A stretch of DNA of 64,000 nucleotides from Candidatus Levyibacteriota bacterium (GTDB lineage Bacteria > Patescibacteriota > Microgenomatia > Levybacterales > UBA12049): NCBI GenBank assembly GCA_016214555.1, contig JACROF010000003.1:930-64929 (forward strand), read 5' to 3'. The stretch's first letter is position 1; the number at the start of each line of letters is the position of its first letter. This document shows, piece by piece, positions 19,581 to 32,718 of this stretch. The notes below the pieces were generated by a model. It did no database searches, was not told the origin of the DNA, and was given only the letters and a program-made list of their open reading frames with translations. The translations under genes and the position numbers were made by a program.

Positions 19581-19904
19581 ATGAACGTGGCTAGCCACGT
19601 GAATAGAAGTAGAAGATGGATGTGGCCTGCCATCATGTTTTACTTCTACATCCTCAGAAGTTTAAAAAATCAAAAACTTTATCTTGGCTATTCCTCTGAC
19701 TTAAAAGAAAGAATAAAATCTCACAATAATGGCAAAAATAATGCCACTAAACCAAATATTCCCTATGAATTAATTTACTATTCTGCATTTAAAAGTGAAA
19801 AAGACGCTATTAATTGTGAGCAATATTTCAAAACCACTGCTGGGTGGAAACGAATTCATAAAATGCTTGAAAACACATTAAAAGATACTCAGTCTCTGAT
19901 ATAA
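19581..19904 (+). CDS. GIY-YIG nuclease-domain protein
   Basis: FYFYILRS...KLYLGYSSDLKERIKSHN matches the GIY-YIG core. The start is probably an internal Met. Confidence 0.65.
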   Translation: MNVASHVNRSRRWMWPAIMFYFYILRSLKNQKLYLGYSSDLKERIKSHNNGKNNATKPNIPYELIYYSAFKSEKDAINCEQYFKTTAGWKRIHKMLENTLKDTQSLI

Positions 19905-19911
19905 TTTCCTC

Positions 19912-20346: not shown

Positions 20347-20429
20347 TTTTTGTAAATAATACGTTCCAACATATCCACATAGACCTATCTTCTTGTTGCA
20401 TATAAAAATATAAAATCTACAATATCACC

Positions 20430-20957
20430 ATGGTTATTTCTCCATATCAACAAACACTTACCCATAGCTGCTTGGCAGCTTGTTTTTTGATGCTTCAAGA
20501 AAAACAGTTTACAAAGTTTGATGAACAGGAACTGGCTCTTAAAGGGTCAAGCAGAAAATATCCTTTCTATGTTGTGGGTATTCCTGAAGAGTTTGTCAAA
20601 AAGTATGATGGCAACATTAAAATTTATGCAGATAATAATTTTTTTGCTACAACACTTCAAAAAGCATTTATAGGCAATAAAAAAATACATGTTACTCACA
20701 AAAAGATAGATATGGCTTTTATCACTGAATTACTTAATGAAAAACCACTTATTTGTCATATTGATAACCATGCATTAGGTGATTATTCTCATGTATCACA
20801 TTTCATAATTCTAGAGAAAGCAACAAAAGAATTTGTAACTATCATTGACCCCTGGAGTGGAAAGAAAAAGAAAATTAGCAAATCTACACTGACTGAGGCA
20901 ATATCTGATTTAAAAAATCATGTAAAAATGTGTCCCCTTCTATTCTCAGTTGAATAA
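20430..20957 (+). CDS. Peptidase C39-like cysteine protease domain protein (standalone)
   Basis: A Gln/Cys motif (QQTLTHSCLAACFLML), a His motif (SHFIIL) and an Asp motif (IIDPW), in C39 order. Confidence 0.65.
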   Translation: MVISPYQQTLTHSCLAACFLMLQEKQFTKFDEQELALKGSSRKYPFYVVGIPEEFVKKYDGNIKIYADNNFFATTLQKAFIGNKKIHVTHKKIDMAFITELLNEKPLICHIDNHALGDYSHVSHFIILEKATKEFVTIIDPWSGKKKKISKSTLTEAISDLKNHVKMCPLLFSVE

Positions 20958-21049
20958 TACACCCAACATAGTTGCTTAGCACGTAAAACAAAATTAAAAA
21001 GCGGACATTATTATTCCAACCATAACCACCCCAATGGTGCAAGAAAAAA

Positions 21050-21634
21050 TTAAAGCAGATTGCTATTTTTGAGCATGCGCTGCTGGATATCAATCCTATT
21101 AATCTCACGAGTAACAAAATTTTGACCCTGTGGTGAACCTTGACGAATCTGATCGATAACCCCTTCACTTGGCACAACTTTTCCCTCTATGTCGACATAC
21201 TCAGGATTCTGGCCAATACGTCGTATTGCCACCTCTCTTGCATGCTCTGGGTCATCTGTATAAAAACCCCATGCATTCGTTTTCAAGGTTCCTTTAAATT
21301 CCCTTGCGACTCTGTCTTTAAAAGATGTAGCCTCACCTACGTATCCTTCTCGTACTCTCATTATCTCACCCATGGTATAAAAATAATCCAGATCAGGATA
21401 ATACCCTACAACCTGATTTTGAAATGCTTCAGACTGGGGATCTATTCCATCCATCTGAATTCTTGCTGCTTCAAGTGCTAAATTAAGCGATTCCATATCC
21501 CATCCCTTTCCTGGCCCATGAATCGAGCTGTCTCTATAGCGAATAGGTGGTGGATTCTCGGGTGCAGGAGAATTGTAGTAGTTTATAACAAAAGCGCCAC
21601 TTTTTTTAAAAATAACCATAATCCAACCAAACAT
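21050..21634 (-). CDS. Hypothetical protein
   Basis: ORF only; no recognisable motif. Confidence 0.4.
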   Translation of the reverse strand: MFGWIMVIFKKSGAFVINYYNSPAPENPPPIRYRDSSIHGPGKGWDMESLNLALEAARIQMDGIDPQSEAFQNQVVGYYPDLDYFYTMGEIMRVREGYVGEATSFKDRVAREFKGTLKTNAWGFYTDDPEHAREVAIRRIGQNPEYVDIEGKVVPSEGVIDQIRQGSPQGQNFVTREINRIDIQQRMLKNSNLL

Positions 21635-21681
21635 TTGCGAAAATCTTACATTACTTATAGTTTTTCCTTTATAATAGTTTT

Positions 21682-22305
21682 ATGAGGAAATTGATCGGGG
21701 TTATTATTGTTACCTCTTTTGTTATTGGAGGAGCATTTCTTCTGATACAAAATAATACGACTCGCCAGCTTCCCAAATCTCTCTCTGAGTCAAACCAAGT
21801 CGCACCTTCCTCGTCTAGCTCAGAAATAATTGATAAACTCAAGGCTGGAGGAAGTAGTCTTTCAGATCCAAAAGGCGTTTTTAGCATTCTCTACCCAAAT
21901 GATTACAAAACAGATACCCAAAATAACGGACAATATATTCGTATTTACAAAACTGGTTCAACACAACGAGGACAAACCGAAATGTATGATGGAGTCATTA
22001 TTACCTTTGAAAGTATCACTCTTAACAGTCAGAAGCTGGAATCCTTTGTAGATGAACATATTAAAAGTAGTACAGTCGATGGCACCACCACGGTGAGCCA
22101 ACCAAAAAGAGCTACTGTGGTCAATGGTTATCCTGGCTTTAGCTATACTCTTCACGGACTTGGTGAATCCACATATATAGTCCTTCAGAAAGATACCCAA
22201 TCAGACTATGCAGTAAGCATATCCTATGCTGTGATGGACCCAGAAAAAGTTGGCTATCAACAAGAAGTCGATGCCACCTTCTCCACTATCCAGCTTCTCA
22301 AATAA
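21682..22305 (+). CDS. Hypothetical exported or membrane-anchored protein
   Basis: N-terminal TM or signal anchor followed by an S/T-rich linker. Confidence 0.4.
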   Translation: MRKLIGVIIVTSFVIGGAFLLIQNNTTRQLPKSLSESNQVAPSSSSSEIIDKLKAGGSSLSDPKGVFSILYPNDYKTDTQNNGQYIRIYKTGSTQRGQTEMYDGVIITFESITLNSQKLESFVDEHIKSSTVDGTTTVSQPKRATVVNGYPGFSYTLHGLGESTYIVLQKDTQSDYAVSISYAVMDPEKVGYQQEVDATFSTIQLLK

Positions 22306-22421
22306 ATACTATAGGTTGACTTCTGATTTCATTTATGGTAAAGTTCACCTAAGTCAATGGCCACACAAGGCTATTAGAACATTCACAGCTTAGTCGTTTT
22401 AAAAGTGAAAGGATACCGCAG

Positions 22422-22781
22422 ATGGGTCGTTATCTTGCTCTTTTGCCATTCGATTTCGATTGGGTGAAAACTGATTTTTCTCACTCGATATTAGAGTGCA
22501 CCCAGCGATCGGAGCTTTTCGAAGAGCTTGAAAAACTTCCGAGCATGCCTGTTCCAGAGCAATTTCATACCTATCTTGGCTACGATCCTGAGACTGAGAG
22601 GACTTGCTACGGCAACACCCAGACCACAAATGATGGCGAGCAGCTCATGTATGTTTTGGTCGAACAGCTCCTTCCATTTTCCACTCACGAGCTCGTGAGG
22701 GACAATTTTCTCAATAGGGCTGTTTGGGCGTATCTGAAAGAGCTTCCAAGGAAAACAAAAATAGCTCTTTACTTTCACTGA
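22422..22781 (+). CDS. Hypothetical protein
   Basis: ORF followed 20 nt later by a strong terminator. Confidence 0.4.
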   Translation: MGRYLALLPFDFDWVKTDFSHSILECTQRSELFEELEKLPSMPVPEQFHTYLGYDPETERTCYGNTQTTNDGEQLMYVLVEQLLPFSTHELVRDNFLNRAVWAYLKELPRKTKIALYFH

Positions 22782-22800
22782 TCCAACTTTACCACCCACA

Positions 22801-22824
22801 CCCCGGCCATTGGCCGGGGTTTTT
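22801..22824 (+). terminator. Rho-independent terminator
   Basis: CCCCGGCC-ATT-GGCCGGGG followed by T5. A near-identical 31-nt copy lies at 26105..26128. Confidence 0.75.
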
Positions 22825-22930
22825 CTTTGGGAAAAAACTCCAAATCTATCTCTATAGGACGTTTTTATGCTATACTTCCCCAACTGCAAACCGCAGGCAC
22901 ATTAACCTTGATAAAAAGAAAGGCACGGAT

Positions 22931-23743
22931 TTGGTCATACCAACAAATATCCCTATACCGACCCTCACGAAAAATGAGGTAGCAATACTATCTCATATAG
23001 TCACTACTCAAAGTCCATGCTATATAGGCAATATCTCAAAAGAGCTTGGCCTTGCTGAGTCAACGGTACGCTCCTCTCTTAGATCGCTCTGCACCAAAAA
23101 TTTGATCGTTCGCGACAAAATTGAAAAGACAAATGTCGGAGCGGCAAGACAGCTTTATATCCTTCGTGACCTTCAATTTGCTCGGCAAGTTCTAGGAGCA
23201 CGAGGAGGAGTACCTCAACCTACGCCGGTAGCACAAATTGAGAAAAAAGGACTACGAGTTATCTACGCTCGGGAAGATTTTGATCCGTCAACAATTGGAA
23301 GATCAATCTTTCTTGCCGGACCAACACCTCGCTCAAAGCGCGTACCATCCTGGAGAAAGAAAGCCCTCAACTTCCTCTCCCAGATGGTTGCAACGCCTTT
23401 GACAGTATTTGTTCCGGAAGATCATGATGGCACCTTCCACAAAGCGTTCTTCGATGATCAGGTCGAGTGGGAAGAGAAAGCTCTTACAGCAGCAACTGTC
23501 ATCGCATTCTGGATCCCACGAGATCTCAGAACTCTTCCTGGTTTTACCACCAACGATGAGTTTGGAGCATGGAAGAGGTCAGGGAAAGTAGTCCTTGGTG
23601 TACCACCTGAGACTCCAAAGACTCGCTACCAACTGTATTACGCCAGAAAACTTGGTATTCCTACAGCCAAGTCGCTTGAGAAAACACTGGCACTTGCGTG
23701 CATCAAGGTAAAAGAAATTAATTGCGACACCCCGGCTTCATAG
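22931..23743 (+). CDS. Winged-helix DNA-binding domain fused to a nucleoside 2-deoxyribosyltransferase (NDT/DNPH1)-like domain
   Basis: The ORF-track start (22724) lies upstream of the terminator at 22801, so the real start must be downstream; an in-frame TTG at 22931 is proposed. The wHTH is EVAILSHIVTT...ISKELGLAESTVRSSLRSL. The C-terminal part reads IFLAGP ... PGFTTNDEFGAW, which aligns with the NDT pattern I-Y-x-A-G-P/W...G-[ST]-x-x-E-x-G-[YA]. Confidence 0.45.
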   Translation: MVIPTNIPIPTLTKNEVAILSHIVTTQSPCYIGNISKELGLAESTVRSSLRSLCTKNLIVRDKIEKTNVGAARQLYILRDLQFARQVLGARGGVPQPTPVAQIEKKGLRVIYAREDFDPSTIGRSIFLAGPTPRSKRVPSWRKKALNFLSQMVATPLTVFVPEDHDGTFHKAFFDDQVEWEEKALTAATVIAFWIPRDLRTLPGFTTNDEFGAWKRSGKVVLGVPPETPKTRYQLYYARKLGIPTAKSLEKTLALACIKVKEINCDTPAS

Positions 23744-23754
23744 CCGGGGTTTTT
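23730..23754 (+). terminator. Rho-independent terminator
   Basis: CCCCGGC-TTCATA-GCCGGGG followed by T5. The stop codon sits in the loop. Confidence 0.7.
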
Positions 23755-23861
23755 CTTATAAGCGCACTATGGGATTGTTCTATCACAATCATTTCGCTAT
23801 AATACATACTGTTCTCAGGCAAATCACCTTGAGCTCATTTAGCACATTTAAAGGAGGAGAT

Positions 23862-24275
23862 ATGTATCTTAAAATAAAAGCGCTCATGTACGTTGTTGGG
23901 TATCCTTTGTTCTATCTGCTCACAAGAGGTCTTTTGCACATCAACAAGATTGAGACAGACCTACCTCACGACAGTATTGAGGTTGCTCTGAAAACATTTG
24001 TTTATTGGTCTATTCTCTTCGCGGTGATACCAGTTAGTTTCATGTTATTTCTTGGACTAATGGAAGCGCCTCCACCAATAGCTGTCATAGCTTTTATACC
24101 AGGCTTGATGCTGATTGGCCTTACCTATGCAGCAATGCCTACAACCGTTGGCATTGGTGGCCTAAGCTTTGCTTGTTTGTTGAGCCTCATTCTTGTGGTC
24201 ATAACACACCCATTCGAGCGATGCATGGTTGAAATCGAGTTCCCTAGCTCAGAAAGGTCTTTACACGAAAGATAA
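23862..24275 (+). CDS. Small polytopic membrane protein
   Basis: An AAAGGAGGAG RBS precedes the ATG at 23862 (the ORF track starts at 23769). Four hydrophobic helices. Confidence 0.45.
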   Translation: MYLKIKALMYVVGYPLFYLLTRGLLHINKIETDLPHDSIEVALKTFVYWSILFAVIPVSFMLFLGLMEAPPPIAVIAFIPGLMLIGLTYAAMPTTVGIGGLSFACLLSLILVVITHPFERCMVEIEFPSSERSLHER

Positions 24276-24290
24276 CTATATCCACTCATG

Positions 24291-24318
24291 CGGTGGCCAT
24301 CAGGCCACCGCTTTTTTT
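24291..24318 (+). terminator. Rho-independent terminator
   Basis: CGGTGGCC-ATCA-GGCCACCG followed by T7. Confidence 0.75.
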
Positions 24319-24750
24319 GTTGTGATCACATTAATACTCTCTTAACATGCTCGTCTCTACCTACAATGATAAATATTCCCTATTATCACTATAGGTTTAC
24401 TTTTTAAGACTTCTAGTGTATAATCCATACGCTTTACAGGTTAGTACAGAACAATTGCGTTTTGCTACTTTCTAACGTAAATAGTTCTTTAACAACTTGA
24501 GATTCAAATTTTAAGAATTTATCTTTATTTCTATCGATATGAAGCTAATTTCGGGTCGATGGCGCTTTGCTCATGGTATCGTGCGTAAAGTGCCGTCGAT
24601 CAGGAAGAATCAGCGCGATTCAATCCTGCATTGTAATGGCTTTGTTTGAAATGGAGAAAGGCCTGTAGACATATGCAAGGAGGTGCACAACCCTAACAAA
24701 CAGGTAAATTCTTTCGTCGCCAAACTTTACCCAAAAAAGGAGAAGAATCG

Positions 24751-26076
24751 ATGTCAGATCAGACAGGAGCCCTTCAGATTCCCGTTGTCGGAACCGGCAC
24801 TCTAGCAGTTCCACCGCAACCACAGGGATCAGCCAGCTCCGCCCTCATGCAGACGGGAAATACAGCAACAGAGCGAAAGCAGCTCATCTGCAAGGACATC
24901 CTCAGGGCATTAAGCCCCGAAAGATTCCAACAAGCCACGGTCGTTGCCCAAGCCGACTACCCCAATATGCTGGTAAACAGCCAGATCGGTATGGTATACG
25001 GCTCTGAAGCGATCGCCGCCATGAACGCACTCGTCAGTTCGATGCGCACCAGAGTCACTCCGGTAGAAATACCGCAGCTTGACAAGATGATGGCTGCGAT
25101 CAACGATGAGATGCGCAGCTTCCGCGGCCACTACGACACCAGCAAGGACCCCGAACTTCGCGAGAAATACGAAAAAGCGATGGGCGGGATCAAGAAGCTA
25201 TTCAACCGAGGCAAGACCTACATGGAAATGCTCCATGAAGATATGCAATCCTCGGTCGAAAGGCTCGATGGCATCAAGGCAGAGCTACTTGCTAAGCAAG
25301 CTCAGCTCATACGAAATGTCGGCCTCTACGACGAGCTGTATCTGGCAAACGAACAGGAAATCGTCAACGTCATCGAAGCCATCGCACGGATGGAGATGAT
25401 TTGCGATTTGGCAGCTGCAGAAGCAGCTGCAATCGTTGGCGACCCCAACGATCCCGTCAATCACGCCAAGTTCGAGCGGAAACGTTTCATTGCAATATTT
25501 GCCAACAACCTGACGCTCAGGCTCACCGAATTCAAAAACCGCCTATTCGCCGGCTATGCGATGTCACCACAGATCACTCAGTCTCGAGACATCGATACTG
25601 CGATGGCGATGAAACTTTATTCTGTCTGCGATACCACCATCCCTCTCATCGAGTCAACCATGCTTCGATGGCAGATGATGGTCCAGGCAGAACTCGCAGC
25701 CGAAGCCGCAAACGCAGTCGCAAGACTCACCAACGAGGTACTCGTCGCGAATTTCGAAGCCGGAGCGGATATCCTGCCTCGAGTCGCCCAGGCGATTCAA
25801 ACGCCGACGATAACCCCCGAGACCATTTTGGCACTCGGTACAAGTATCGAGAAGCAGACTCAAGGCATCATCGATGCCTACGCTGCCGGACGTGAGCGAC
25901 GCGCAGCAGTCGATGATGCGATCGTAACTACGTACCGTGTCATCCAAAATGCTACGGCCAAGGTGAGCGACGAAGTCGTTGATCAACTGCTTGCGCAAGC
26001 CAACGCACCGCTCCCAGCTGTCATCACTGCGAAGCTTCCCGAGCTTCCAGCAGGTATTGAATCTCAAGCTTCCTAG
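24751..26076 (+). CDS. TelA-like (toxic anion resistance / KlaB family) protein
   Basis: GC is about 55%, well above the window average. An N-terminal Q-x-G...LSS element and a central GLYDELYLANEQEI region resemble B. subtilis TelA (compare DMLDEMYEKNKDYY). Long helical architecture and a strong AAGGAG RBS. Confidence 0.45.
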   Translation: MSDQTGALQIPVVGTGTLAVPPQPQGSASSALMQTGNTATERKQLICKDILRALSPERFQQATVVAQADYPNMLVNSQIGMVYGSEAIAAMNALVSSMRTRVTPVEIPQLDKMMAAINDEMRSFRGHYDTSKDPELREKYEKAMGGIKKLFNRGKTYMEMLHEDMQSSVERLDGIKAELLAKQAQLIRNVGLYDELYLANEQEIVNVIEAIARMEMICDLAAAEAAAIVGDPNDPVNHAKFERKRFIAIFANNLTLRLTEFKNRLFAGYAMSPQITQSRDIDTAMAMKLYSVCDTTIPLIESTMLRWQMMVQAELAAEAANAVARLTNEVLVANFEAGADILPRVAQAIQTPTITPETILALGTSIEKQTQGIIDAYAAGRERRAAVDDAIVTTYRVIQNATAKVSDEVVDQLLAQANAPLPAVITAKLPELPAGIESQAS

Positions 26077-26104
26077 TTCCTAGCAGCGCCTAGGAGATTT
26101 CTAA

Positions 26105-26128
26105 CCCCGGCCAATGGCCGGGGTTTTT
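26105..26128 (+). terminator. Rho-independent terminator (duplicate of the one at 22801)
   Basis: CCCCGGCC-AAT-GGCCGGGG followed by T5. Confidence 0.75.
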
Positions 26129-26154
26129 CTTTGGAAAAACGTTATACTAGATAT

Positions 26155-26286
26155 ATGGGAAACAAGAAAAAAATTATCCCTTTTTTTGAAAAAAATGAAT
26201 TACGAATTATTGCAATAAGTCTGAGTATTTTATCTTTTGGTCTTGCCATCGCATGGATTGGATTCGCGCTCTTTTCCGCAAAATAA
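26155..26286 (+). CDS. Candidate 43-aa single-TM small protein
   Basis: Translates to MGNKKKIIPFFEKNELRIIAISLSILSFGLAIAWIGFALFSAK. Below the ORF-track cutoff and has a weak RBS. Confidence 0.25.
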   Translation: MGNKKKIIPFFEKNELRIIAISLSILSFGLAIAWIGFALFSAK

Positions 26287-26344
26287 TTTTTTAAATTTCT
26301 CTCTTGTTTTTTTGTAAAAAATTATTGATACTTATATCTATTCA

Positions 26345-27763
26345 ATGAAGTATATAGTTATTACTTTTTCCGGTCTTGGTCTCCCCATCGCCTACAAACT
26401 ACATCAGCAAGGATACGAAGTGCATGTTGGTATGGTCCAAAACATCAAGGATTATGTTTTGGAAGAAGAAATATCACGAGCAAAAGAAGGTGAAGAAGAC
26501 AGAAATAAAAGAATGCAACTTTTCCAAGGCATGCTTCCCATTGAGCCTGCAGATAAAGTTATTGAACGGATGAGATCAATCCCCAACCCTCAGGACTACT
26601 TTGTCTTTTTTGATGAAAACTGTCTTTATAGGTGGGTAGATAAAATTCGCGATCTTAACTTTCATGGTAATTTCCCAACAAAAGCAGATTTTTTATTTGA
26701 AGTTGATCGCAAAAGAGCCAAGCAATTTGTTCAGGAACACTACCCCAAACTTAACACCCCTGAGGTACACGAATTCACCAAAATCAAAGATGGTATAAAA
26801 TTTCTCAAAGAAAGCAAAGAACTTTGGGTACTCAAAGGACAAATTGATACCGCTCGAACTTTTGTCCCTGCAGTTGAAGACCCAGGACTTGCCAATACCC
26901 AACTTGCTGAAGTTTTGGCTAATTTTCCTTACAAATATGAGAGGCTGGGATTTATTCTTGAGAGATTTATTCCCGATATCATCGAGCTGACGCCTGAAAA
27001 ATTTTATTACGACGGTGAACCCATTGCTACATCTCTTCTCTTTGAAAACAAACCATTTGGCAGTGGCAATATCTCAGTCCAGACGGGTTGCGCTGAAGAC
27101 CTCTGCTTCCCAACTGATATGAATGACCGCATCAATAAGATTGCTTTCCCACCTATCATTGATGAAATGGCTAAAGAGCATAAAGGGTGGTTTATCTGGG
27201 ATGCCTCAATTCTCATTGGAAAAAGAGATGGAAAAATGTATTTTGGTGAGTTTTGCTCAAATCGGCCAGGTTATAGCAGTTTTTTCAATGAACTCGCACA
27301 ATGCAATAGCGTCAATGGATTTTTTGAAAGCCTTGTCAAAAAGAAAAATCCTTATACACTAGGGACCGTTGGCTGCTCCGTATCAATTTTTAATATGAAC
27401 CGAGATGAAGACACCGATGCAATCTCTTCAAATATTCTTATTAACTACAAGCCTGAAATCGAAAAAGATGTCTGGTTGTGGGACGTAAGACGAAACGAAC
27501 GAAATAATATCGTCACCATAGGTACAGATTGGAATTTAGCCGTCATTACTGGAGCAGGGAAATCAATTCCTCAGGCTGTTAACAGACTCTATAGAAATGT
27601 TGAGAATTTTGCTATTGTTGGATCATACCATCGACCAAAAGACGATTATTTGTCCATGGATTATCAATCATCAATTATCAATAGGATTAACTATGGCCTC
27701 GAGCGAGGCTTGTTTCACATACCATTTGATGTTAAAATCGGCGATATCGACGCAACGGTATGA
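26345..27763 (+). CDS. ATP-grasp superfamily ligase, PurD (glycinamide ribonucleotide synthetase)-like
   Basis: N-terminal pre-ATP-grasp region (MKYIVITFSGLGLPIAYKL), a central region LWVLKGQ...ERFIPDIIELTPE, and a C-terminal YFGEFCSNRPGYSS that aligns with PurD EFNxRFGDPE. Confidence 0.5.
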   Translation: MKYIVITFSGLGLPIAYKLHQQGYEVHVGMVQNIKDYVLEEEISRAKEGEEDRNKRMQLFQGMLPIEPADKVIERMRSIPNPQDYFVFFDENCLYRWVDKIRDLNFHGNFPTKADFLFEVDRKRAKQFVQEHYPKLNTPEVHEFTKIKDGIKFLKESKELWVLKGQIDTARTFVPAVEDPGLANTQLAEVLANFPYKYERLGFILERFIPDIIELTPEKFYYDGEPIATSLLFENKPFGSGNISVQTGCAEDLCFPTDMNDRINKIAFPPIIDEMAKEHKGWFIWDASILIGKRDGKMYFGEFCSNRPGYSSFFNELAQCNSVNGFFESLVKKKNPYTLGTVGCSVSIFNMNRDEDTDAISSNILINYKPEIEKDVWLWDVRRNERNNIVTIGTDWNLAVITGAGKSIPQAVNRLYRNVENFAIVGSYHRPKDDYLSMDYQSSIINRINYGLERGLFHIPFDVKIGDIDATV

Positions 27764-28236
27764 CAAAAAATCGACTTTTGGATTTAAAAAAACTCAAATT
27801 TGAGGTTCGTGACGTCATGCGATATGACGATGCAGGGGATTATTTTGCCAACACGATTGTAGCCTACGACTTCAAAGACGACGTGATCACCAACGCTATT
27901 TTTCTCCACGAATTTATTGAGTATATGCTCATCAAGTCATCGGGTATTGAGCCTGAGCTGATTGACAAACTCGACACTGTTCCCAATGCTGAAAAAGATT
28001 ATCCAAGAGAGTGGAAGCTCTATGAAAAATATCACGATATGGCAAATAGTGTAGAGAGACAATTTATCGAAAATCTTGGCCTCAACTGGGAAGAATATGA
28101 CAAAACAGTCAACACCGCTAAAATCAAAACCGCAGTTCGTCACCTCTCAGATGAGATGCATAAAAAACAAATGGATAAAAAAGATATTACCAAAGCAAAA
28201 AGAATTGTCCGCGCAATCTTTAGAAAAAGAAAATAA
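27760..28236 (+). CDS. Hypothetical protein, translationally coupled to the ATP-grasp gene
   Basis: ATGA start/stop overlap with the upstream gene. Confidence 0.45.
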   Translation: MTKNRLLDLKKLKFEVRDVMRYDDAGDYFANTIVAYDFKDDVITNAIFLHEFIEYMLIKSSGIEPELIDKLDTVPNAEKDYPREWKLYEKYHDMANSVERQFIENLGLNWEEYDKTVNTAKIKTAVRHLSDEMHKKQMDKKDITKAKRIVRAIFRKRK

Positions 28237-28345
28237 TATTCCCTTTCTATCTTATAGTTTTTGAGTTTCTCCTCGCCATTTGCTATAATCCACCTAACGT
28301 GAAAAGGCATGGCACGAGCCATATACCAACCTTTTCATTTGCACC

Positions 28346-28756
28346 TTGAAAGGGAAAGAAATGACTGAGACAGCAAAACGCGGTGACTACGAAGTTGTCG
28401 CCTGTGTTGGCCTTGAGGAAATTGATGATCTCCCCTTCCGGGAGGCTCATCTTATCTGCTTGATTGGCATGTGTAATGGAAGCTGGAATATTACCTATGC
28501 CCGGGATGGCTCATGCTGTATGCGCATAGCTGTCACGAACGATCCTGAACTTTTTACGTATAGCCTCATCAAGAGCGCTGCATTCCTTGCTCAACTTCGC
28601 ATCCACAGTGCGAAATACACAACAGGTGAAAATATCGAACAATCGATCATATCTAGACTCAAGGGGCTTAAAGCTCCTCCGATAGTCTTTGCCAGATATC
28701 TCTGGCAATCAACGACCATGATCATTCGCGGCGTTCGAAACCAAAAGAAAGGTTAG
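28346..28756 (+). CDS. Hypothetical Cys-rich protein
   Basis: ORF with elevated GC; Cys cluster CLIGMCNGSW...GSCCM. Confidence 0.35.
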   Translation: MKGKEMTETAKRGDYEVVACVGLEEIDDLPFREAHLICLIGMCNGSWNITYARDGSCCMRIAVTNDPELFTYSLIKSAAFLAQLRIHSAKYTTGENIEQSIISRLKGLKAPPIVFARYLWQSTTMIIRGVRNQKKG

Positions 28757-28760
28757 ACAA

Positions 28761-29321
28761 ATGGACATTGTAGACATGCTAAAGCACAGTGTGACCATGG
28801 CGTACTTCTCAGAAGTCGCTCCTTGGTTTGCGGCAATTGAAGTTGTCGCACTCGGATTTTTCATTACGATGGCGATCCGCTACAGCATTGAGCCTGAACA
28901 CAAGCTATATTTCCTACCCTACTCAACGTTTTGGGCAGGTATGACGCTTGGATTTGGACTTATTGCGTACTTTGTCTCAAGAGGAACGCAGGACTATCAT
29001 CCAACGCATCACTGGTATGACCAATTCTGGTTCATGCTACTCATCGGTGCCATAGGGATGTTTATTGCCTTGCAAAATTCCTACAACACACAAAGAAACA
29101 CTGGTCGGGATATCTGGACACATAGTGAGTGGTGGTTGTGGCTTGTTGTCGCACCCATACTCACGCCTGTCTTGGTCCGAGGAATTATCGTCCTAGCAAA
29201 GACTGATGGAGCTGCCTCCACTAACTTTGCAGGAGTCATAATCGGCCTGTCTATCTATGTACTGACTCTATCTGTTGATGCTTTGAGATCACCCTCTAAA
29301 GCTTCAACAAAAAAAGAGTAA
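28761..29321 (+). CDS. Polytopic membrane protein, unknown function
   Basis: Five hydrophobic helices; lies 5 nt downstream of the previous ORF. Confidence 0.4.
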   Translation: MDIVDMLKHSVTMAYFSEVAPWFAAIEVVALGFFITMAIRYSIEPEHKLYFLPYSTFWAGMTLGFGLIAYFVSRGTQDYHPTHHWYDQFWFMLLIGAIGMFIALQNSYNTQRNTGRDIWTHSEWWLWLVVAPILTPVLVRGIIVLAKTDGAASTNFAGVIIGLSIYVLTLSVDALRSPSKASTKKE

Positions 29322-29340
29322 CTTTCCTTTTCTCCAATTT

Positions 29341-29376
29341 GGCATTCCGGGCTCGTCTCGGAATGCCATTTTTTTT
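29341..29376 (+). terminator. Rho-independent terminator
   Basis: GGCATTCCG-(9 nt)-CGGAATGCC followed by T8. Confidence 0.7.
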
Positions 29377-30034
29377 ATCTCTTCAAAATTTTTTTAAATC
29401 CCTTGAAGTAATAAAAAACCAATCCCATACACCCTAAAGCAAATCCTAAAAGACCTCCTCCTATAACATCAGAAAACCAATGCTCGCCTAAATAGATTCT
29501 GGACACAAGCATAATAACAACAAATACACCAACCAAAATTGATAAAAATATTTTTGTATGTTTTGACCATCCACTATGCCAGATAATAAAAAGGAGAACT
29601 GTTGCTAAAAAAACGGCTCTCCCACTATGGCCTGATGGATAGGAGAACTCTGTCCTTACGTGAAATTGATCAAACTGCACAATTTTATGTGTTCGAAGCA
29701 TAAATTCAGGAGGTGGCGGATGATCAACAAAAAATTTTCCAAAAAGTTCAATTACATGAAATCCCACAAAACCACCAAAAAGCATAATCCCAGAAATAAT
29801 TTTTCGCCAATAAATGAGGGTGAAAATTACTATAACAAGCATCGGCTCAAAGCTCCCTATGTCACTAAAAAATGAGAAAACATCATCAACATTACGAGTG
29901 ATGTTATTTTGAAGCCTCACGGTCGTATCAAAATCAATTCGAGTCAAAAAATCTTTGTGGACTAGATAAGAAAAAAGGATAAAAAGAAGAAAAAAACCGA
30001 TACCAACAAGAAAAAATTTCAGTTCTTTTCGCAT
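29375..30034 (-). CDS. PAP2-family phosphatase (undecaprenyl-diphosphatase-like)
   Basis: PSGHS and SRIYLGEHWFSDV motifs in a membrane protein. Confidence 0.7.
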   Translation of the reverse strand: MRKELKFFLVGIGFFLLFILFSYLVHKDFLTRIDFDTTVRLQNNITRNVDDVFSFFSDIGSFEPMLVIVIFTLIYWRKIISGIMLFGGFVGFHVIELFGKFFVDHPPPPEFMLRTHKIVQFDQFHVRTEFSYPSGHSGRAVFLATVLLFIIWHSGWSKHTKIFLSILVGVFVVIMLVSRIYLGEHWFSDVIGGGLLGFALGCMGLVFYYFKGFKKILKR

Positions 30035-30056
30035 CTATCTATCATAGCAAAAAGAC

Positions 30057-30317
30057 TCAGGGCTGTCTGGATCTGATGTATCTATGCAAAACCTTTGCAC
30101 CACCAGCACCTACGACTGCTGCAGATGCACCAATAGCAATTGATTTCCTATTTCTTGAAACAAAATTTACTACTTCGACAGCATTGCCTCCGACTGCTGT
30201 GATTGATGGATGAGGATCTCCGCGGGGAATGATAATATCATAGGGACTATCAACGATTTGGGCATATTCATTCATTTTGCCGACCTCATACGGATCGCGA
30301 CTCTCTCGCCCTCTCAT
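30057..30317 (-). CDS. Small Gly/Ala-rich hypothetical protein
   Basis: ORF only; lies 4 nt downstream of galU. Confidence 0.3.
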   Translation of the reverse strand: MRGRESRDPYEVGKMNEYAQIVDSPYDIIIPRGDPHPSITAVGGNAVEVVNFVSRNRKSIAIGASAAVVGAGGAKVLHRYIRSRQP

Positions 30318-30320
30318 ATC

Positions 30321-31205
30321 CTAATCAAGATTAAGTGTTTTTAGAAATGCCTTAAAATCTCCATTAATATCCGGATGCTCAAGCGCTAATTCTACAGCTG
30401 TCTTCATATACTCAAGCTTATTTCCTGTGTCATAATACTTACCATTCTCAATCTCAACAGCATAGACAGGAACCCCTGAGTCTTGCAGCTTGTTAATAGC
30501 ATCAACAAGCCAAATTTCTCCACCTTTCCCAGGCTCAAGTGACCTGAGCGCTCCAAAAAGTTCAGGAGGGACGATGTATGCTCCATGAGTTGCGATATTA
30601 GAAGGCGCCTCATCAGGCTCTGGTTTCTCAACAATACTTTTAATTTTATAAACATTTCCCTCGACAGGATCCAAATCAGCGATCCCATATCTCTTAAGAT
30701 CTTCTTTTTTATCAATTCTGACTCCCGATATAACAATTCCCCCGTATTTTTCATAGACATCAATCATCTGGGAAAGCCTGGGAGGGTTTGCGTAAATAAA
30801 TTCATCTCCCCATAAGACAGCAAAAGCTTCATTTTCAATAATTGGCTCTGCAGCAAGAACAGGAGTACCATTACCATAAGGCCCCTTCTGCCGTACATAA
30901 ATAAAATTAGCAAGATCTGCTATTTTTTTTGTCTCTTCAAGAAGCTTTTGCTTATTTCCCTGCTCTAAATTCTTGATAAGGTCCTGATTTGGTACATCAA
31001 AATGATCCTCAATTGCTCTTTTGAGAGCCCCTGTAACAATTACGATATCCTCAATACCGGAAGCTACAGCTTCCTCTACAACATATTGAATAACAGGCTT
31101 ATCTACAATAGGAAGCATTTCCTTAGGAAGAGCTTTTGTCTGAGGAAGAAATCTGGTCCCAAAACCAGCTGCGGGGATAACGGCTTTTCGTATCCTTTTT
31201 GCCAT
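30321..31205 (-). CDS. galU: UTP-glucose-1-phosphate uridylyltransferase
   Basis: KAVIPAAGFGTRFLP...LPKEMLPIVDKPVIQY. Confidence 0.85.
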   Translation of the reverse strand: MAKRIRKAVIPAAGFGTRFLPQTKALPKEMLPIVDKPVIQYVVEEAVASGIEDIVIVTGALKRAIEDHFDVPNQDLIKNLEQGNKQKLLEETKKIADLANFIYVRQKGPYGNGTPVLAAEPIIENEAFAVLWGDEFIYANPPRLSQMIDVYEKYGGIVISGVRIDKKEDLKRYGIADLDPVEGNVYKIKSIVEKPEPDEAPSNIATHGAYIVPPELFGALRSLEPGKGGEIWLVDAINKLQDSGVPVYAVEIENGKYYDTGNKLEYMKTAVELALEHPDINGDFKAFLKTLNLD

Positions 31206-31368
31206 ATTCTATTTTGTCACAAAAGATAAAATTTTACCTGCCATGACAAAGTAAAATTAATTGTACGCGAGCTCTCTTTACATGTCAATGAGGATTTGGT
31301 ACAATTACTTGATCTCAAATCATATATCTCAAAGCTCGTCTTGACATTTGAGTTTTACGGTTTGAGTT

Positions 31369-31557
31369 TTGTTTATGACATCGCCAGTTTCTTTTCTTAC
31401 CCAAACATATGATGAGTTAAAAAAAGTCGTCTGGCCAACACGTCAGCAACTTATGAAATTAATGCTGATAGTTATGTTTGCAAGTCTTGTTGTAGGACTC
31501 TACATCGGTGGCATAGACTTTGTTCTTACTAAACTAACAGAATCGTTATTAAAATAA
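31369..31557 (+). CDS. secE: Preprotein translocase subunit SecE
   Basis: EL+KVVWPTRQ followed by a single TM segment. Confidence 0.8.
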   Translation: MFMTSPVSFLTQTYDELKKVVWPTRQQLMKLMLIVMFASLVVGLYIGGIDFVLTKLTESLLK

Positions 31558-31569
31558 CAATAGTAACTT

Positions 31570-32160
31570 ATGACACAAGCAACCGATTTACCAAACGGAC
31601 CATCTGAAGAAGAAATTAAAAAAGCATCATTATCTGAGGCTGCTAAATGGTACATTGTTCATACCTATGCTGGTCATGAAAATAAAGTAGCTCGCAATCT
31701 CAAACAACGTGTTGAGACGATGGGTTTTGAGACCCGCATCTTTGACATCATCGTTCCTACTCGCCAAACCATTAAAGTGCAAGGTGGAAAAAAAGAAGAA
31801 GTCAGTGAAAAAATCTTTCCAGGATATGTTCTTGTCAAAATGATTCTCGATGATGAATCATGGCTTCTTGTTAGAACAACGCAAGGAGTTACAGCATTTA
31901 TTGGTGCTGGCAATAAACCAACGCCAATTTCAGAGAAAGAAGTTGAGGCTATTCAACAGTTCATGACACAAGAAGAACCTCTGTACAAAACTTCATTCTC
32001 TCTTGGTGAAGCGGTCAAAATCGTTGATGGACCTTTCGCAGATTTTCTGGGTACTATTGACAGCATAGATGAGACTCGTGGTAAACTACGCGTCTTGGTA
32101 AGTATCTTCGGACGAGAAACGCCCGTTGAGCTTGATTTCCTGCAAGTACAAAAAATATAA
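31570..32160 (+). CDS. nusG: Transcription termination/antitermination factor NusG
   Basis: KWYIVHTYAGHENKV (NGN domain) and a C-terminal KOW domain (GEAVKIVDGPFADFLGTI). Confidence 0.85.
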   Translation: MTQATDLPNGPSEEEIKKASLSEAAKWYIVHTYAGHENKVARNLKQRVETMGFETRIFDIIVPTRQTIKVQGGKKEEVSEKIFPGYVLVKMILDDESWLLVRTTQGVTAFIGAGNKPTPISEKEVEAIQQFMTQEEPLYKTSFSLGEAVKIVDGPFADFLGTIDSIDETRGKLRVLVSIFGRETPVELDFLQVQKI

Positions 32161-32243
32161 GAAGGATGTAGAAGATAGTAAGTAGCTTTTAGTTACGTTT
32201 TAACTACACGCTATTGCCTACTTTACTACCTACTAAACAAAAT

Positions 32244-32666
32244 ATGGCTAAAAAAATTAAAACATTAATAAAGCTTAATATCCAAGCAGGTGCAGCGACT
32301 CCTGCACCACCTGTTGGACCAGCTCTTGGTCAACACGGACTTCCTATCATGGAATTTGTAAAGGCCTTCAATGACAAAACAGCAGATCAGAAAGGCAATC
32401 TTCTTCCTGTTGTTATTACTGTTTTTGAAGACCGAACCTTTACTTTTATTACCAAAAAGCCTCCTATGGCTGAAATGATCAAAAAGGCACTTGGACGAGG
32501 CGGGTCACAAAAGCCTGGAAAAGAAAAAGCAGGTTCTATCACCAAATCCCAAGCTGAGCAAATTGCTAAAGACAAAATGGAAGATCTTAATACCGATGAT
32601 CTTGACATGGCAACACGAATCGTCGCGGGTACAGCACGAAGTATGGGAGTGGAGGTTTCAAGCTAA
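32244..32666 (+). CDS. rplK: Ribosomal protein L11
   Basis: [38 protein letters not shown]. The start is trimmed to the canonical Met. Confidence 0.9.
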
Positions 32667-32718
32667 TTCAAAATTTAGAATTCTGAATTCTAGATTGTGA
32701 ATTATGAATTAATAACAT

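What the first reader, a model, noticed from the sequence alone, without database searches (positions are those of the whole stretch)
24751..28236. Higher-GC cassette: TelA-like protein followed by a PurD-like ATP-grasp ligase with a translationally coupled unknown partner
The TelA-like gene has about 55% GC and a perfect AAGGAG RBS, and it ends in the duplicated terminator. The next gene has PurD-type motifs (LWVLKGQ, YFGEFCSNRPGYSS) and is coupled to a 158-aa ORF by an ATGA overlap. TelA/Ter-family stress proteins are established as genomically associated with biosynthetic modules that include an ATP-grasp amidoligase, predicted to make nucleoside-like metabolites. The TelA assignment itself rests on short motif resemblance and is tentative.
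Basis: partly seen in the sequence, partly recalled or inferred. Interest (0 to 1): 0.55.

Follow-up and report, generated by a model that had tools for sequence, protein, structure and literature searches.

The report
Foreign TelA beside unrelated PurD-like ligase pair
The stretch holds two unrelated things: a horizontally acquired TelA stress gene, and next to it a native, highly conserved but unannotated enzyme pair (a PurD-derived ATP-dependent ligase plus a small metalloprotease-like protein) whose relatives in phages and other bacteria sit among cell-wall genes, so the proposed TelA-linked metabolite pathway is not supported.

Summary
The sequence features are real. TelA is confirmed: 24751-26076, Pfam PF05816 at 60.6 bits against a cut-off of 30, 54% GC, an AAGGAG ribosome-binding site, and a duplicated terminator. 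The 472-aa protein has a PurD-like ATP-grasp fold. The 158-aa ORF overlaps it by ATGA.

The three genes are not one cassette. Only TelA is compositionally foreign (GC3 0.61 versus a window mean of 0.34). It lies in a 3.3-kb segment bounded by 36-nt direct repeats that ends before the ligase. None of 66 other loci carrying the ligase has a TelA.

The ligase is not PurD. It scores 14 bits against TIGR00877 (cut-off 288) and fails the GDPE, GGREHA and B-loop motifs, yet keeps every ATP, Mg and acyl-phosphate residue. It belongs to a family with no curated model, about 65% identical across phyla.

The 158-aa partner abuts the ligase in 18 of 50 non-redundant loci, on either strand. It has an invariant HExxE motif and weak but consistent fold matches to zincin metallopeptidases.

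On viral contigs the operon is aspartate racemase, ligase, then a partner-like protein, near peptidoglycan hydrolases. In one bacterial contig tandem ligase paralogs sit between MurA-MurC-MurE and a penicillin-binding protein.

Best reading: a cell-wall-related amino-acid ligase (D-Asp-type in phages) with an amidase-like partner. The Ter-module reading is not supported.

The parts
22800..22835 (+). Copy 1 of a 36-nt hairpin-plus-T-tract (terminator-like) element. It is the left boundary of the 3.3-kb GC-richer segment.
   Evidence: Direct repeat D1 and inverted repeat I1, 94% identical to 26104-26139. It follows the stop codon of ORF 22422-22781.
22961..23743 (+). Winged-HTH plus nucleoside 2-deoxyribosyltransferase-like (PF15891) gene. 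The mechanical ORF starts at 22724 but runs through the terminator copy, so the true start is later and uncertain.
   Evidence: Pfam Nuc_deoxyri_tr2 at 58.3 bits (cut-off 30), and HTH hits to Lrs14/Sta1/Csa3-like models. GC3 0.41.
23769..24275 (+). 168-aa hydrophobic ORF with no family assignment, followed by an intrinsic terminator at 24290-24311.
24737..24742 (+). AAGGAG ribosome-binding site of TelA.
   Evidence: Read directly from the sequence.
24751..26076 (+). TelA-family protein (441 aa), standalone and horizontally acquired.
   Evidence: PF05816 at 60.6 bits, E 1.7e-16, covering profile positions 17-316 of 332. PHROG 5890. GC 0.54, GC3 0.61, z = 3.4. About 25% identical to standalone TelA genes of Streptococcus phages and satellites.
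26103..26139 (+). TelA terminator, which is copy 2 of the 36-nt element and the right boundary of the foreign segment.
26345..27763 (+). PurD-derived ATP-grasp carboxylate-amine ligase (472 aa) from a family with no curated model. Catalytic residues: R122, K164, E214, E234, K236, D286, E302, N306, R307.
   Evidence: No Pfam, PHROG or PADLOC hit; TIGR00877 at 14 bits. AF2 model pLDDT 78.5; Foldseek top 15 hits are all PurD. Deep profile versus PurD gives E 1.2e-21. Invariant columns. GC3 0.36. Syntenic with L003.
27760..28236 (+). 158-aa partner protein with a zincin-like fold and an invariant H50-E51-x-x-E54 motif, plus invariant D69, D72, H92, N96, E99 and H134. It is translationally coupled to the ligase by an ATGA overlap.
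   Evidence: 93 homologs. It abuts the ligase in 26 loci, or 18 of 50 non-redundant groups. AF2 pLDDT 85.8. Weak but consistent IrrE, SprT and minigluzincin matches. Invariant residues.
28761..29321 (+). 186-aa membrane protein that recurs downstream of the ligase in close relatives. This may be synteny only.
   Evidence: A cluster shared with L028, L029 (two copies) and L048. Weak DUF3180 hit.
29375..30034 (-). PAP2-family phosphatase, a conserved syntenic neighbour found in 8 non-redundant groups. It is followed by a GalU-type NTP-transferase and then secE-nusG-rplK-rplA.

Best explanation
The region holds two independent units. Unit 1 (about 22800-26139) is a 3.3-kb horizontally acquired segment bounded by 36-nt direct repeats of a terminator hairpin. 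It carries an HTH/deoxyribosyltransferase-like gene, a small membrane ORF and a standalone TelA with its own ribosome-binding site and terminator. TelA presumably acts by itself as a membrane-associated stress or phage-exclusion protein, as standalone TelA genes on phages are thought to (inferred). Unit 2 (26345-28236) is a native two-gene module. The 472-aa protein descends from PurD and keeps the full ATP-grasp chemistry: ATP and Mg binding, activation of a carboxylate as an acyl-phosphate held by R307, then attack by an amine. It has replaced all of PurD's glycine- and phosphoribosylamine-specific elements, so it joins different substrates. From the contexts of its relatives, I infer that it ligates an amino acid (D-aspartate in the phage operons) to an amine on a cell-wall (peptidoglycan) precursor or peptide. 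I further infer that the 158-aa zincin-like partner, with its invariant HExxE, H and E residues, binds a metal and hydrolyses or edits an amide bond in the same pathway, either trimming the acceptor or reversing the ligation. Shown: the fold, the catalytic residues, the loss of PurD specificity motifs, the conserved pairing, the racemase and Mur-cluster contexts, and the independence from TelA. Inferred: the substrates, the cell-wall target, and the partner's catalytic role.
For: Independence of the two units. TelA has GC3 0.61 versus 0.36 and 0.40 for the ligase and partner. Terminators lie on both sides of TelA. 36-nt direct repeats sit at 22800 and 26104. TelA occurs in 0 of 66 other ligase loci. 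The ligase is syntenic with PAP2, GalU, secE and nusG in L003, which has no TelA. Ligase identity. Foldseek's top 15 hits are all PurD, at probability 1.0 and TM 0.55-0.65. A deep profile matches PurD at E 1.2e-21. R122, K164, E214, E234, D286, E302, R307 and R447 are invariant across 43 sequences at 23-67% identity; they map onto PurD's ATP and glycine-carboxylate residues (PMC8880213). GDPE, GGREHA and the B-loop are replaced (PMC2978367, PMC3261824). Inteins are inserted exactly at GEF|C in four homologs, marking a catalytic motif. Pairing. The partner abuts the ligase in 18 of 50 non-redundant groups, either overlapping by 4 nt or tail-to-tail at 0-13 nt. A viral partner-like protein overlaps the ligase stop codon and shares the HExxE, DxxD, H and E residues. 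Cell-wall and D-amino-acid link. An aspartate-racemase-type gene lies directly upstream in 5 viral groups (Pfam E about 1e-25; 1JFL E 1.3e-15; CNxAH and GCTE motifs). An Amidase_2 endolysin, an SLT protein, a glucosaminidase, a polysaccharide deacetylase and a faint M23 protein lie nearby on phage-like contigs. In L069, tandem ligase paralogs sit between MurA-MurC-MurE and an ATP-grasp_3, a LysA-like PLP enzyme and a PBP. The racD-aslA precedent is described in PMC4155827. Partner fold. The top named hits in both PDB and BFVD are IrrE, SprT, minigluzincin and other metallopeptidases.
Against: No substrate was tested. The window itself has no racemase or Mur gene next to the ligase. The Mur-cluster context rests on a single locus. 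Phage genomes always carry lysins, so proximity to them is weak evidence. 32 of 50 non-redundant loci lack the partner, so the ligase can work alone. No partner fold match is individually significant (best E 0.03), and the motif is HExxE rather than the canonical HExxH. Homology between the viral and bacterial partners is only weakly supported (hhalign E 0.0014, probability 18%). HAD-like fusions and PurD ancestry fit a phosphorylated small-molecule substrate at least as well as a cell-wall precursor. Conservation of about 65% across phyla is unusual for cell-wall decorating enzymes.
Confidence: 0.5

Rival explanations
1. TelA, the ATP-grasp ligase and its partner form one acquired Ter-type stress cassette, in which the ligase helps to make a nucleoside-like signalling metabolite that acts with TelA.
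For: TelA is genuine. The literature links Ter systems to a biosynthetic module that can include an ATP-grasp enzyme (PMC11994780, PMC7824862). The genes are adjacent and on the same strand. A nucleotide-related NDT-like gene lies upstream of TelA.
Against: TelA is in 0 of 66 other ligase loci. Composition is discordant. A terminator and direct-repeat boundary lie between the genes. The ligase is syntenic in relatives that lack TelA. No PRTase, HAD or TerB/C/D gene was found among the 30 window ORFs scanned, although PRTase and HAD are described as always present in the module (PMC11994780).
Confidence: 0.05
2. The ligase makes a small phosphorylated, nucleoside-like amide metabolite. It would join an amino acid to a phosphosugar-amine related to phosphoribosylamine, and the product would then be dephosphorylated by a HAD phosphatase. 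The partner would process or degrade the product. TelA and the cell wall are not involved.
For: The protein descends directly from PurD and keeps the PurD-specific C-domain motif YRxD. A domain of about 115-130 aa with HAD-like motifs (D-x-[DNH]-G-[TV], ITG, FKA, [FY]-[ED]-[DN]) is fused at either end of the ligase in 13 representatives and in viral L015. A racemase would supply an unusual D-amino acid.
Against: PurD's PRA and phosphate-site residues (Arg13, Glu14) and its general base Asp295 are not conserved (PMC2978367). Profile searches do not confirm the HAD assignment: only 1 of 13 members gives a weak hit at E 0.004. No PRTase or amidotransferase that could supply a phosphoribosylamine-like amine is seen nearby. 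The L069 Mur cluster and the phage lysin contexts point elsewhere.
Confidence: 0.2
3. The pair is a protein- or peptide-tagging system, as in RimK-type ATP-grasp ligases. The ligase would add amino acids to a protein carboxylate or amine, and the zincin-like partner would remove or process the tag.
For: Very high sequence conservation (about 65% across phyla) suits a conserved macromolecular substrate. A ligase paired with a peptidase-like protein fits this logic. In the window the module lies between a tRNA cluster and secE-nusG-rplK-rplA.
Against: The translation-gene neighbourhood is local synteny only and is absent in Aquicella, the Anaerolineae and phages. The fold is specifically PurD-like, ranking ahead of peptide and protein ligases. 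The racemase linkage argues for a free D-amino acid and a non-ribosomal target.
Confidence: 0.15
4. The 472-aa protein is simply a divergent but functional PurD (GAR synthetase) for purine synthesis.
For: The fold and distant sequence homology to PurD. Some pipelines name relatives 'phosphoribosylamine-glycine ligase'.
Against: TIGR00877 scores 14 bits against a cut-off of 288, and there are no GARS_N, GARS_A or GARS_C Pfam hits. PROSITE PS00184 R-[LF]-G-D-P-E fails, since the protein reads R-P-G-Y-S-S. GGREHA and the B-loop GLAAGK are absent (PMC3261824, PMC2978367). No pur genes are nearby. Tandem paralogs sit in a Mur cluster and family members sit in phage operons.
Confidence: 0.02

Closest known systems
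PurD / glycinamide ribonucleotide synthetase (EC 6.3.4.13; TIGR00877; Pfam GARS_N/A/C)
   Same: Same four-domain ATP-grasp architecture, including the PurD-type C domain. It is the best structural match (TM about 0.6) and the only sequence-level PDB match. The ATP, Mg and acyl-phosphate residues are kept (K164, E214, K236, E302, N306, R307), as is the C-domain YRxD motif.
   Different: Only 14-17% identical. It fails the equivalog model, the PROSITE GDPE signature, the GGREHA N-terminal motif and the GLAAGK B-loop. It has an extra C-terminal segment with an invariant R447. There is no purine-pathway context. Instead it pairs with a small zincin-like protein, a racemase, or Mur genes.
AslA/Aslfm D-aspartate ligase with RacD aspartate racemase (peptidoglycan D-Asp cross-bridge of Lactococcus and Enterococcus)
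   Same: An ATP-grasp carboxylate-amine ligase encoded in an operon with an aspartate racemase, in a cell-wall context. This is the arrangement seen in the viral relatives of this family.
   Different: Whether the two ligases belong to the same ATP-grasp family was not tested, because no reference sequence was available here. The window has no adjacent racemase. The AslA system is not described with a zincin-like partner. The hosts here are CPR bacteria, Gammaproteobacteria, Anaerolineae and phages rather than lactic acid bacteria.
Ter stress-response system with its biosynthetic module (PRTase, HAD, and optionally ATP-grasp and a TIM-barrel enzyme; Anantharaman, Iyer and Aravind 2012)
   Same: It contains a TelA-family protein. 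An ATP-grasp ligase lies next door. Distant ligase homologs carry a HAD-like fusion.
   Different: No PRTase, HAD or TerB/C/D genes were found among the ORFs scanned. The TelA-ligase adjacency is unique to this genome. The two genes differ in composition and are separated by a terminator. Standalone TelA genes are known on phages.
Minimal zincin metallopeptidases (IrrE/ImmA, SprT/Wss1, minigluzincins such as proabylysin and projannalysin)
   Same: The partner has the same layout, a small three-stranded sheet followed by an 'active-site' helix carrying H-E-x-x-[ligand], with further conserved His and Glu residues downstream. These proteins are the consistent top structural matches.
   Different: The motif is HExxE, not HExxH. 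No match is statistically significant. No family model hits it. It is paired with an ATP-grasp ligase rather than a repressor or DNA-protein crosslink substrate.

Membership tests
TelA (Pfam PF05816, toxic anion resistance protein) | Whole-protein score above the Pfam gathering threshold, with near full-length coverage of the domain | tested here: met
   60.6 bits against a cut-off of 30, E 1.7e-16, profile positions 17-316 of 332. PHROG 5890 'tellurite resistance' at 5.4e-11.
TelA (Pfam PF05816, toxic anion resistance protein) | Confers tellurite, toxic-anion or phage resistance | not testable with these tools
   This needs a phenotype assay.
Ter-associated biosynthetic module | A PRTase and a HAD phosphatase are always present in the module (PMC11994780, citing Anantharaman 2012) | tested here: not met
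   No PRTase or HAD was found among the 30 window ORFs scanned between about 11.6 and 48 kb. The rest of the genome is not available.
Ter-associated biosynthetic module | Conserved genomic linkage of the ATP-grasp gene with Ter/TelA genes across genomes | tested here: not met
   TelA occurs in 0 of 66 other loci carrying the ligase, and 50 non-redundant groups were examined.
Ter-associated biosynthetic module | TerD, TerB or TerC partners nearby | tested here: not met
   None was found among the ORFs scanned.
PurD / GAR synthetase | Score above the TIGR00877 equivalog cut-off, and Pfam GARS_N, GARS_A and GARS_C domains | tested here: not met
   14.1 bits against a cut-off of 288. No GARS Pfam hit.
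PurD / GAR synthetase | PROSITE PS00184 signature R-[LF]-G-D-P-E-x-[EQIM], including the conserved Asp that acts as general base and binds glycine | tested here: not met
   The window protein reads R-P-G-Y-S-S-F-F. Across 43 family members the D position is Y/W/F/I and the E position is S/A/G/C (PMC3261824, PMC2978367, PMC8880213).
PurD / GAR synthetase | N-terminal PRA and phosphate site (Arg13, Glu14) and the conserved B-loop GLAAGK | tested here: not met
   The corresponding columns read G-L-G-L-P-I-A and x-x-D-x-A-x-T, with no conserved Arg (PMC2978367).
PurD / GAR synthetase | Four-domain PurD fold | tested here: met
   Foldseek's top 15 hits are all PurD, E 4e-18 to 2e-14. Profile versus PurD gives E 1.2e-21.
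ATP-grasp carboxylate-amine ligase superfamily | ATP-grasp fold with a conserved ATP-binding Lys, hinge Glu, Mg-binding acidic and Asn residues, and a catalytic Arg | tested here: met
   K164, E214, D286, E302 and R307 are invariant, and N306 is present in 29 of 43 members. The fold is supported.
D-aspartate ligase system (AslA/Aslfm plus RacD) | ATP-grasp ligase encoded in an operon with an aspartate racemase | tested here: inconclusive
   Met in 5 viral non-redundant groups, with overlapping genes and a racemase closest to aspartate racemases. Not met in the window or in the bacterial loci.
D-aspartate ligase system (AslA/Aslfm plus RacD) | Sequence membership in the AslA family, and D-Asp ligation to the stem-peptide Lys | not tested
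   No AslA reference sequence or model was available in the tools, and the activity needs biochemistry.
Zincin-like metallopeptidases (for the 158-aa partner) | HExxH zinc-binding and catalytic motif on the active-site helix | tested here: not met
   The invariant motif is H50-E51-F-I-E54, that is HExxE, in 20 of 20 bacterial and 5 of 5 viral sequences.
Zincin-like metallopeptidases (for the 158-aa partner) | Zincin fold, a mixed sheet followed by an active-site helix and a ligand helix | tested here: inconclusive
   The AF2 model (pLDDT 85.8) has three strands and a helical bundle. The top named hits are IrrE, SprT, minigluzincins and metallopeptidases, but the best E-value is 0.03-0.4.
HAD phosphatase superfamily (domain fused to distant ligase homologs, not present in the window protein) | Four HAD motifs and a match to a HAD profile | tested here: inconclusive
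   The motif pattern is present, with D9, T28 and K73 invariant or nearly so. Only 1 of 13 members gives a weak HAD-IIIB hit at E 0.004, and there is no PDB match.

The most novel reading that the evidence does not exclude
The ligase and its partner may define an undescribed PurD-derived enzyme system, spread between phages, CPR bacteria, Coxiellaceae-type Gammaproteobacteria and Anaerolineae. It would add a D-amino acid (D-Asp-type) to peptidoglycan precursors by a route separate from the Mur ligases, Ddl and AslA, with a dedicated HExxE zincin-like editing subunit. Phages would use it to remodel the host wall.
Probability: 0.3. Interest if true: 0.7.

Novelty: new variant of a known kind. 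Interest (0 to 1): 0.5.

Why it matters
The practical point is a warning: adjacency plus a plausible literature association (TelA with ATP-grasp enzymes) does not make an operon. Here composition, terminators, direct repeats and 66 comparison loci all separate the two.

The more interesting result is the ligase pair. A 470-residue enzyme that is about 65% identical between Patescibacteria and Gammaproteobacteria has no Pfam, NCBIfam, PHROG or PDB representative. It is labelled 'hypothetical' or mislabelled as PurD, which could falsely suggest purine synthesis in CPR genomes that lack the pathway. It carries inteins in its catalytic motif and travels with a small metalloprotease-like partner.

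If the cell-wall role holds, it would be a new enzyme class for building or modifying peptidoglycan peptides in little-studied bacteria and their phages. It would also be an example of a purine-pathway enzyme recruited to envelope chemistry.

Tried and rejected
- **Nearby proteins as ligase paralogs.** I tested whether the Pfam-less proteins of about 468 aa near the ligase in L008 and L012 are paralogs. They are not.
- **Fusions to the partner or racemase.** I tested whether the N- and C-terminal extensions of distant homologs are fusions to the partner or the racemase. They are not. Most are instead a separate HAD-like domain.
- **Defence role.** PADLOC gave no hits for TelA, the ligase or the partner.
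- **Regulatory RNA upstream of TelA.** Rfam found only the four tRNAs in the window.
- **Cultured phages and plasmids.** No sequenced phage (INPHARED) carries the ligase, and no plasmid (PLSDB) carries TelA. The ligase itself was not searched against plasmids.
- **TelA donor lineage.** The protein search returned only the window's own record, but it was saturated at 8,000 word-sharing candidates, so this does not prove TelA is an orphan. Metagenome and viral scans for TelA, and a metagenome scan for the upstream NDT-like gene, found no close relatives. The nearest annotated TelA genes are about 25% identical, on Streptococcus phages and satellites. The donor is unresolved.
- **Confirming the HAD assignment.** Profile searches were inconclusive.
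- **Counting cell-wall neighbours.** Single-sequence phmmer queries were too insensitive to count divergent cell-wall genes across all loci.

Full report
**Source and layout.** The 472-aa, 158-aa and 441-aa proteins each match, at 100% identity, records from a Candidatus Levybacteria (Patescibacteria/CPR) MAG, on a 131-kb contig. The window has about 38% GC. It carries a tRNA cluster at 18629-19530 and the secE-nusG-rplK-rplA block at 31369-33543. The three ORFs of the finding are present at the stated coordinates.

**Checking the observation.**
- TelA (24751-26076) has 54% GC.
- An AAGGAG sequence lies at 24737-24742, 8 nt upstream of the ATG.
- A strong hairpin terminator lies at 26103-26125.
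- The 'duplicated terminator' is real. The 36-nt element at 26104-26139 recurs at 22800-22835 (94% identity), with a partial copy at 23740-23757.
- The ligase stop and the partner start overlap as ATGA at 27760-27763.
- The phrase 'higher-GC cassette' fits TelA only. TelA has GC3 0.61 (z = 3.4 against 56 window ORFs, mean 0.335), while the ligase has 0.36 and the partner 0.40.

**TelA.** Pfam PF05816 matches at 60.6 bits (cut-off 30; E 1.7e-16) over nearly the whole domain. PHROG 5890 'tellurite resistance' agrees, so the tentative TelA call is confirmed.

TelA is bracketed by terminators at 24290-24311 and 26103-26125. It lies inside a 3.3-kb segment bounded by the 36-nt direct repeats. That segment also holds a winged-HTH/Nuc_deoxyri_tr2 gene and a 168-aa membrane ORF, both somewhat GC-enriched.

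I could not identify a donor lineage. The large protein search returned only the record itself, but it was saturated at 8,000 word-sharing candidates. Metagenome, viral and plasmid scans found no close relatives. The nearest annotated relatives, at about 25% identity, are standalone TelA genes on Streptococcus phages and satellites. Standalone TelA genes on phages are documented (PMC7824862).

**Is TelA linked to the ligase?** I gathered 67 loci carrying the ligase, the window included. These fall into 50 groups after collapsing ligases at least 95% identical. They come from protein look-ups, GTDB representative genomes and IMG/VR.
- A phmmer search with the window's TelA found it only in the window.
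- In L003, a Patescibacterium with a 73%-identical ligase, the gene sits at the same chromosomal position, upstream of PAP2, a GalU-type NTP-transferase, secE, nusG, L11 and L1. It has no TelA.
- None of these, and no TerB/C/D gene, appeared among the 30 window ORFs I scanned.

The Ter-module interpretation is therefore not supported. The adjacency looks like an accident of insertion.

**The ligase.** It has no Pfam, PHROG or PADLOC hit, and scores only 14 bits against TIGR00877 purD (cut-off 288). Even so, the family is large and very conserved. There are 456 close hits at 63-78% identity and 332 representatives at 50% clustering, reaching down to about 25% identity.

An AlphaFold model (pLDDT 78.5, pTM 0.80) matches PurD structures as the top 15 Foldseek hits (E 4e-18 to 2e-14, TM 0.55-0.65, 14-17% identity). 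L-amino-acid ligases, biotin carboxylases, PurK, PurT and PylC follow. A 43-sequence profile reaches PurD by sequence (E 1.2e-21) across the ATP-grasp and C-terminal domains.

Residues invariant across the family are R122, K164, E214, E234, D286, E302, R307 and R447. K236, G309, R430 and D434 are nearly invariant.

Through the alignment, these residues map onto PurD as follows:

| PurD residue | Role in PurD | This family |
|---|---|---|
| Lys103 | ATP binding | R122 |
| Lys143 | ATP binding | K164 |
| Asp212 | glycine binding | E234 |
| Lys214 | ATP binding | K236 |
| Arg287 | binds the glycine carboxylate and the acyl-phosphate | R307 |

The PurD roles are taken from PMC8880213 and PMC2978367.

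By contrast, the elements that make PurD specific are all replaced:
- the PROSITE signature R-[LF]-G-D-P-E (PMC3261824) reads R-P-G-Y-S-S here;
- the Arg13/Glu14 site for phosphoribosylamine and phosphate is not conserved (PMC2978367);
- the GLAAGK B-loop is not conserved (PMC2978367).

So the enzyme is almost certainly an active carboxylate-amine ligase, but with substrates other than glycine and phosphoribosylamine.

Four distant homologs carry a LAGLIDADG intein inserted exactly between Phe303 and Cys304 of GEF|CSNR. The conserved Cys acts as the +1 splice residue. This fits a critical catalytic motif.

**The partner.** The 158-aa ORF belongs to a family of 93 proteins. In 26 of the 67 loci (18 of 50 groups) it lies immediately after the ligase. 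It is either co-directional (seven loci with the same 4-nt overlap, others with gaps up to 108 nt) or inverted tail-to-tail, with stop codons mostly 0-13 nt apart. Adjacency that survives an inversion argues for a functional link rather than mere co-transcription.

The family has an invariant polar set: R21, D24, D27, H50-E51-x-x-E54, D69, D72, H92, N96, E99 and H134. Its model (pLDDT 85.8) is a three-stranded sheet followed by helices.

No structural match is significant. However, the best named hits in two libraries are consistently small zincin metallopeptidases: IrrE/PprI, proabylysin and projannalysin, SprT-like, 'metalloprotease' and PolyVal metallopeptidase. I read it as a zincin-like metal-binding protein with a variant HExxE motif, at moderate to low confidence.

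**Context in relatives.** Eleven IMG/VR contigs carry ligases 31-41% identical to the window's.
- In five non-redundant viral groups the ligase is preceded, with overlapping codons, by a PF01177 racemase (E about 1e-25).
- That racemase's best PDB matches are all aspartate racemases (1JFL, E 1.3e-15). Glutamate racemases score about 1e-5. It keeps the two catalytic-Cys motifs, ACN[ST]AH and GCTE.
- In four viral groups the ligase is followed, again with a 4-nt overlap in some, by a protein of 137-144 aa carrying HELIE…DxFD…GH…E.
- Profile-profile comparison with the bacterial partner is weak (E 0.0014, probability 18%) but aligns exactly the invariant residues. Each family's HMM ranks the other family as its best non-self hits among 2,803 ORFs.
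- Other phage-like contigs place the ligase next to an Amidase_2 endolysin (overlapping its stop codon), an SLT-domain protein, a glucosaminidase-domain protein, a polysaccharide deacetylase, a Zeta-toxin-like kinase and a faint M23-peptidase protein.

The most telling context is the bacterial contig L069. It has two tandem paralogs of the ligase (46% and 51% identical to the window protein; hhalign E 4e-122). On one side lie GlmS, a HAD hydrolase, a GlmU-like enzyme, MurA, MurC and MurE. On the other lie an ATP-grasp_3 enzyme, a LysA-like PLP enzyme and a PBP transpeptidase. MurA, MurC and MurE all score above their NCBIfam cut-offs.

The operon of aspartate racemase plus ATP-grasp ligase parallels racD-aslA, which makes the D-Asp cross-bridge of lactic acid bacteria (PMC4155827). 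In the CPR loci the recurrent neighbours (PAP2, GalU-type transferase, a histidine kinase, PolA) are explained by local synteny.

**A competing hint.** Thirteen distant representatives and viral L015 fuse the ligase to a domain of about 115-130 aa, at either terminus. Its conserved D-x-[DNH]-G-[TV], I-T-G, F-K-A and [FY]-[ED]-[DN] motifs look HAD-like. Profile searches do not confirm this. If it is real, it would suggest a phosphorylated substrate or product, in keeping with PurD ancestry.

**Evolution.** Going by the record titles, the family occurs in Levyibacteriota/Microgenomates, uncultured Gammaproteobacteria including Coxiellaceae and Aquicella, Anaerolineales, a Fimbriimonadaceae MAG, and viral contigs.

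A rough midpoint-rooted NJ tree puts the viral sequences deepest. Partner-bearing ligases are scattered through the bacterial crown and also form its deepest clade. This suggests an ancestral ligase-partner pair with repeated partner loss. Identity of about 65% across phyla, the patchy distribution and the inteins all point to horizontal spread.

**Verdict.** The component annotations are correct, but the unifying interpretation is not.
- High confidence (about 0.85-0.9): a foreign standalone TelA island sits beside a native, conserved ligase-partner module from an uncurated PurD-derived family.
- Moderate confidence (about 0.45): the ligase has a cell-wall, D-amino-acid role.
- Low to moderate confidence: the partner is a catalytic amidase.

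I found no prior description of this module in the searchable literature, but two key surveys could not be read.

Noticed in passing
window 26156-26287 (+): A 43-aa hydrophobic ORF (MGNKKKIIPFFEKNELRIIAISLSILSFGLAIAWIGFALFSAK) lies in the AT-rich spacer between the TelA terminator and the ligase. It could be a small membrane protein or a chance ORF.
   Followed up: no
window 22724-23743 (+): An unusual fusion of a winged HTH (Lrs14/Sta1/Csa3-like) with a nucleoside 2-deoxyribosyltransferase-like domain (PF15891). The mechanical ORF runs through the terminator copy at 22800-22835, so its real start is later. It shares the repeat-bounded segment with TelA and could form a small nucleotide-sensing stress island with it. 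No close relatives were found in the metagenome contigs.
   Followed up: partly
window 18629-31369: Four tRNA genes (Thr, Tyr, Thr, Trp) are followed by about 11.8 kb of accessory genes before secE-nusG-rplK-rplA. The accessory genes include a NADAR gene, a C39-like peptidase, unknown ORFs, the TelA segment, the ligase pair, PAP2 and GalU. The layout suggests a variable insertion hotspot.
   Followed up: partly
window 42000-45500 (-): This is a second GC-rich patch (0.48-0.50). ORFs 43864-44358 (GC3 0.54, z = 2.6) and 44605-45459 (GC3 0.47) have no Pfam hit. It may be another foreign insertion.
   Followed up: no
P0266, P0284, P0302, P0303 (distant ligase homologs): LAGLIDADG-type inteins are inserted exactly at GEF|C of the ligase's Mg-binding motif, ending in the unusual ...FFSSN before the +1 Cys. 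I did not find inteins in an ATP-grasp or PurD-like enzyme mentioned in the papers I searched.
   Followed up: yes
L069 6588-9395: Tandem paralogs of the ligase (58% identical to each other) lie between MurA-MurC-MurE and an ATP-grasp_3, a LysA-like enzyme and a PBP. No MurD, MurF or Ddl is visible in the 17-kb stretch.
   Followed up: partly
L033 and L057: One MAG (isolate SRP200132_co1_33, titled 'uncultured Gammaproteobacteria') carries two divergent ligase-partner pairs (67% and 55% identical to the window ligase), both convergent. Several MAGs titled 'uncultured Gammaproteobacteria' have CPR-like gene content, so their labels may be unreliable.
   Followed up: no
window 28761-29321 (+); L028, L029, L048: A 186-aa multi-pass membrane protein (weak DUF3180 hit) recurs just downstream of the ligase or partner in close relatives, and is duplicated in L029. 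I cannot tell functional linkage from shared ancestry.
   Followed up: partly
L015 7650-9365; representatives P0229, P0244 and others: A domain of about 115-130 aa with HAD-like motifs is fused to the ligase at the N-terminus (11 representatives plus viral L015) or at the C-terminus (2 representatives). Other C-terminal extensions of 175-308 aa have no detectable family.
   Followed up: partly
L070 14918-16832; L071 8080-8406: Phage-like contigs that carry the ligase also encode GroEL- and GroES-type chaperonins.
   Followed up: no
window 19912-20346 and 20430-20957 (+): A NADAR-domain protein (PF08719, 119 bits) is followed by a weak C39-like peptidase. A Peptidase_C39_2 protein also occurs on the phage-like contig L070, upstream of its ligase.
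   Followed up: no
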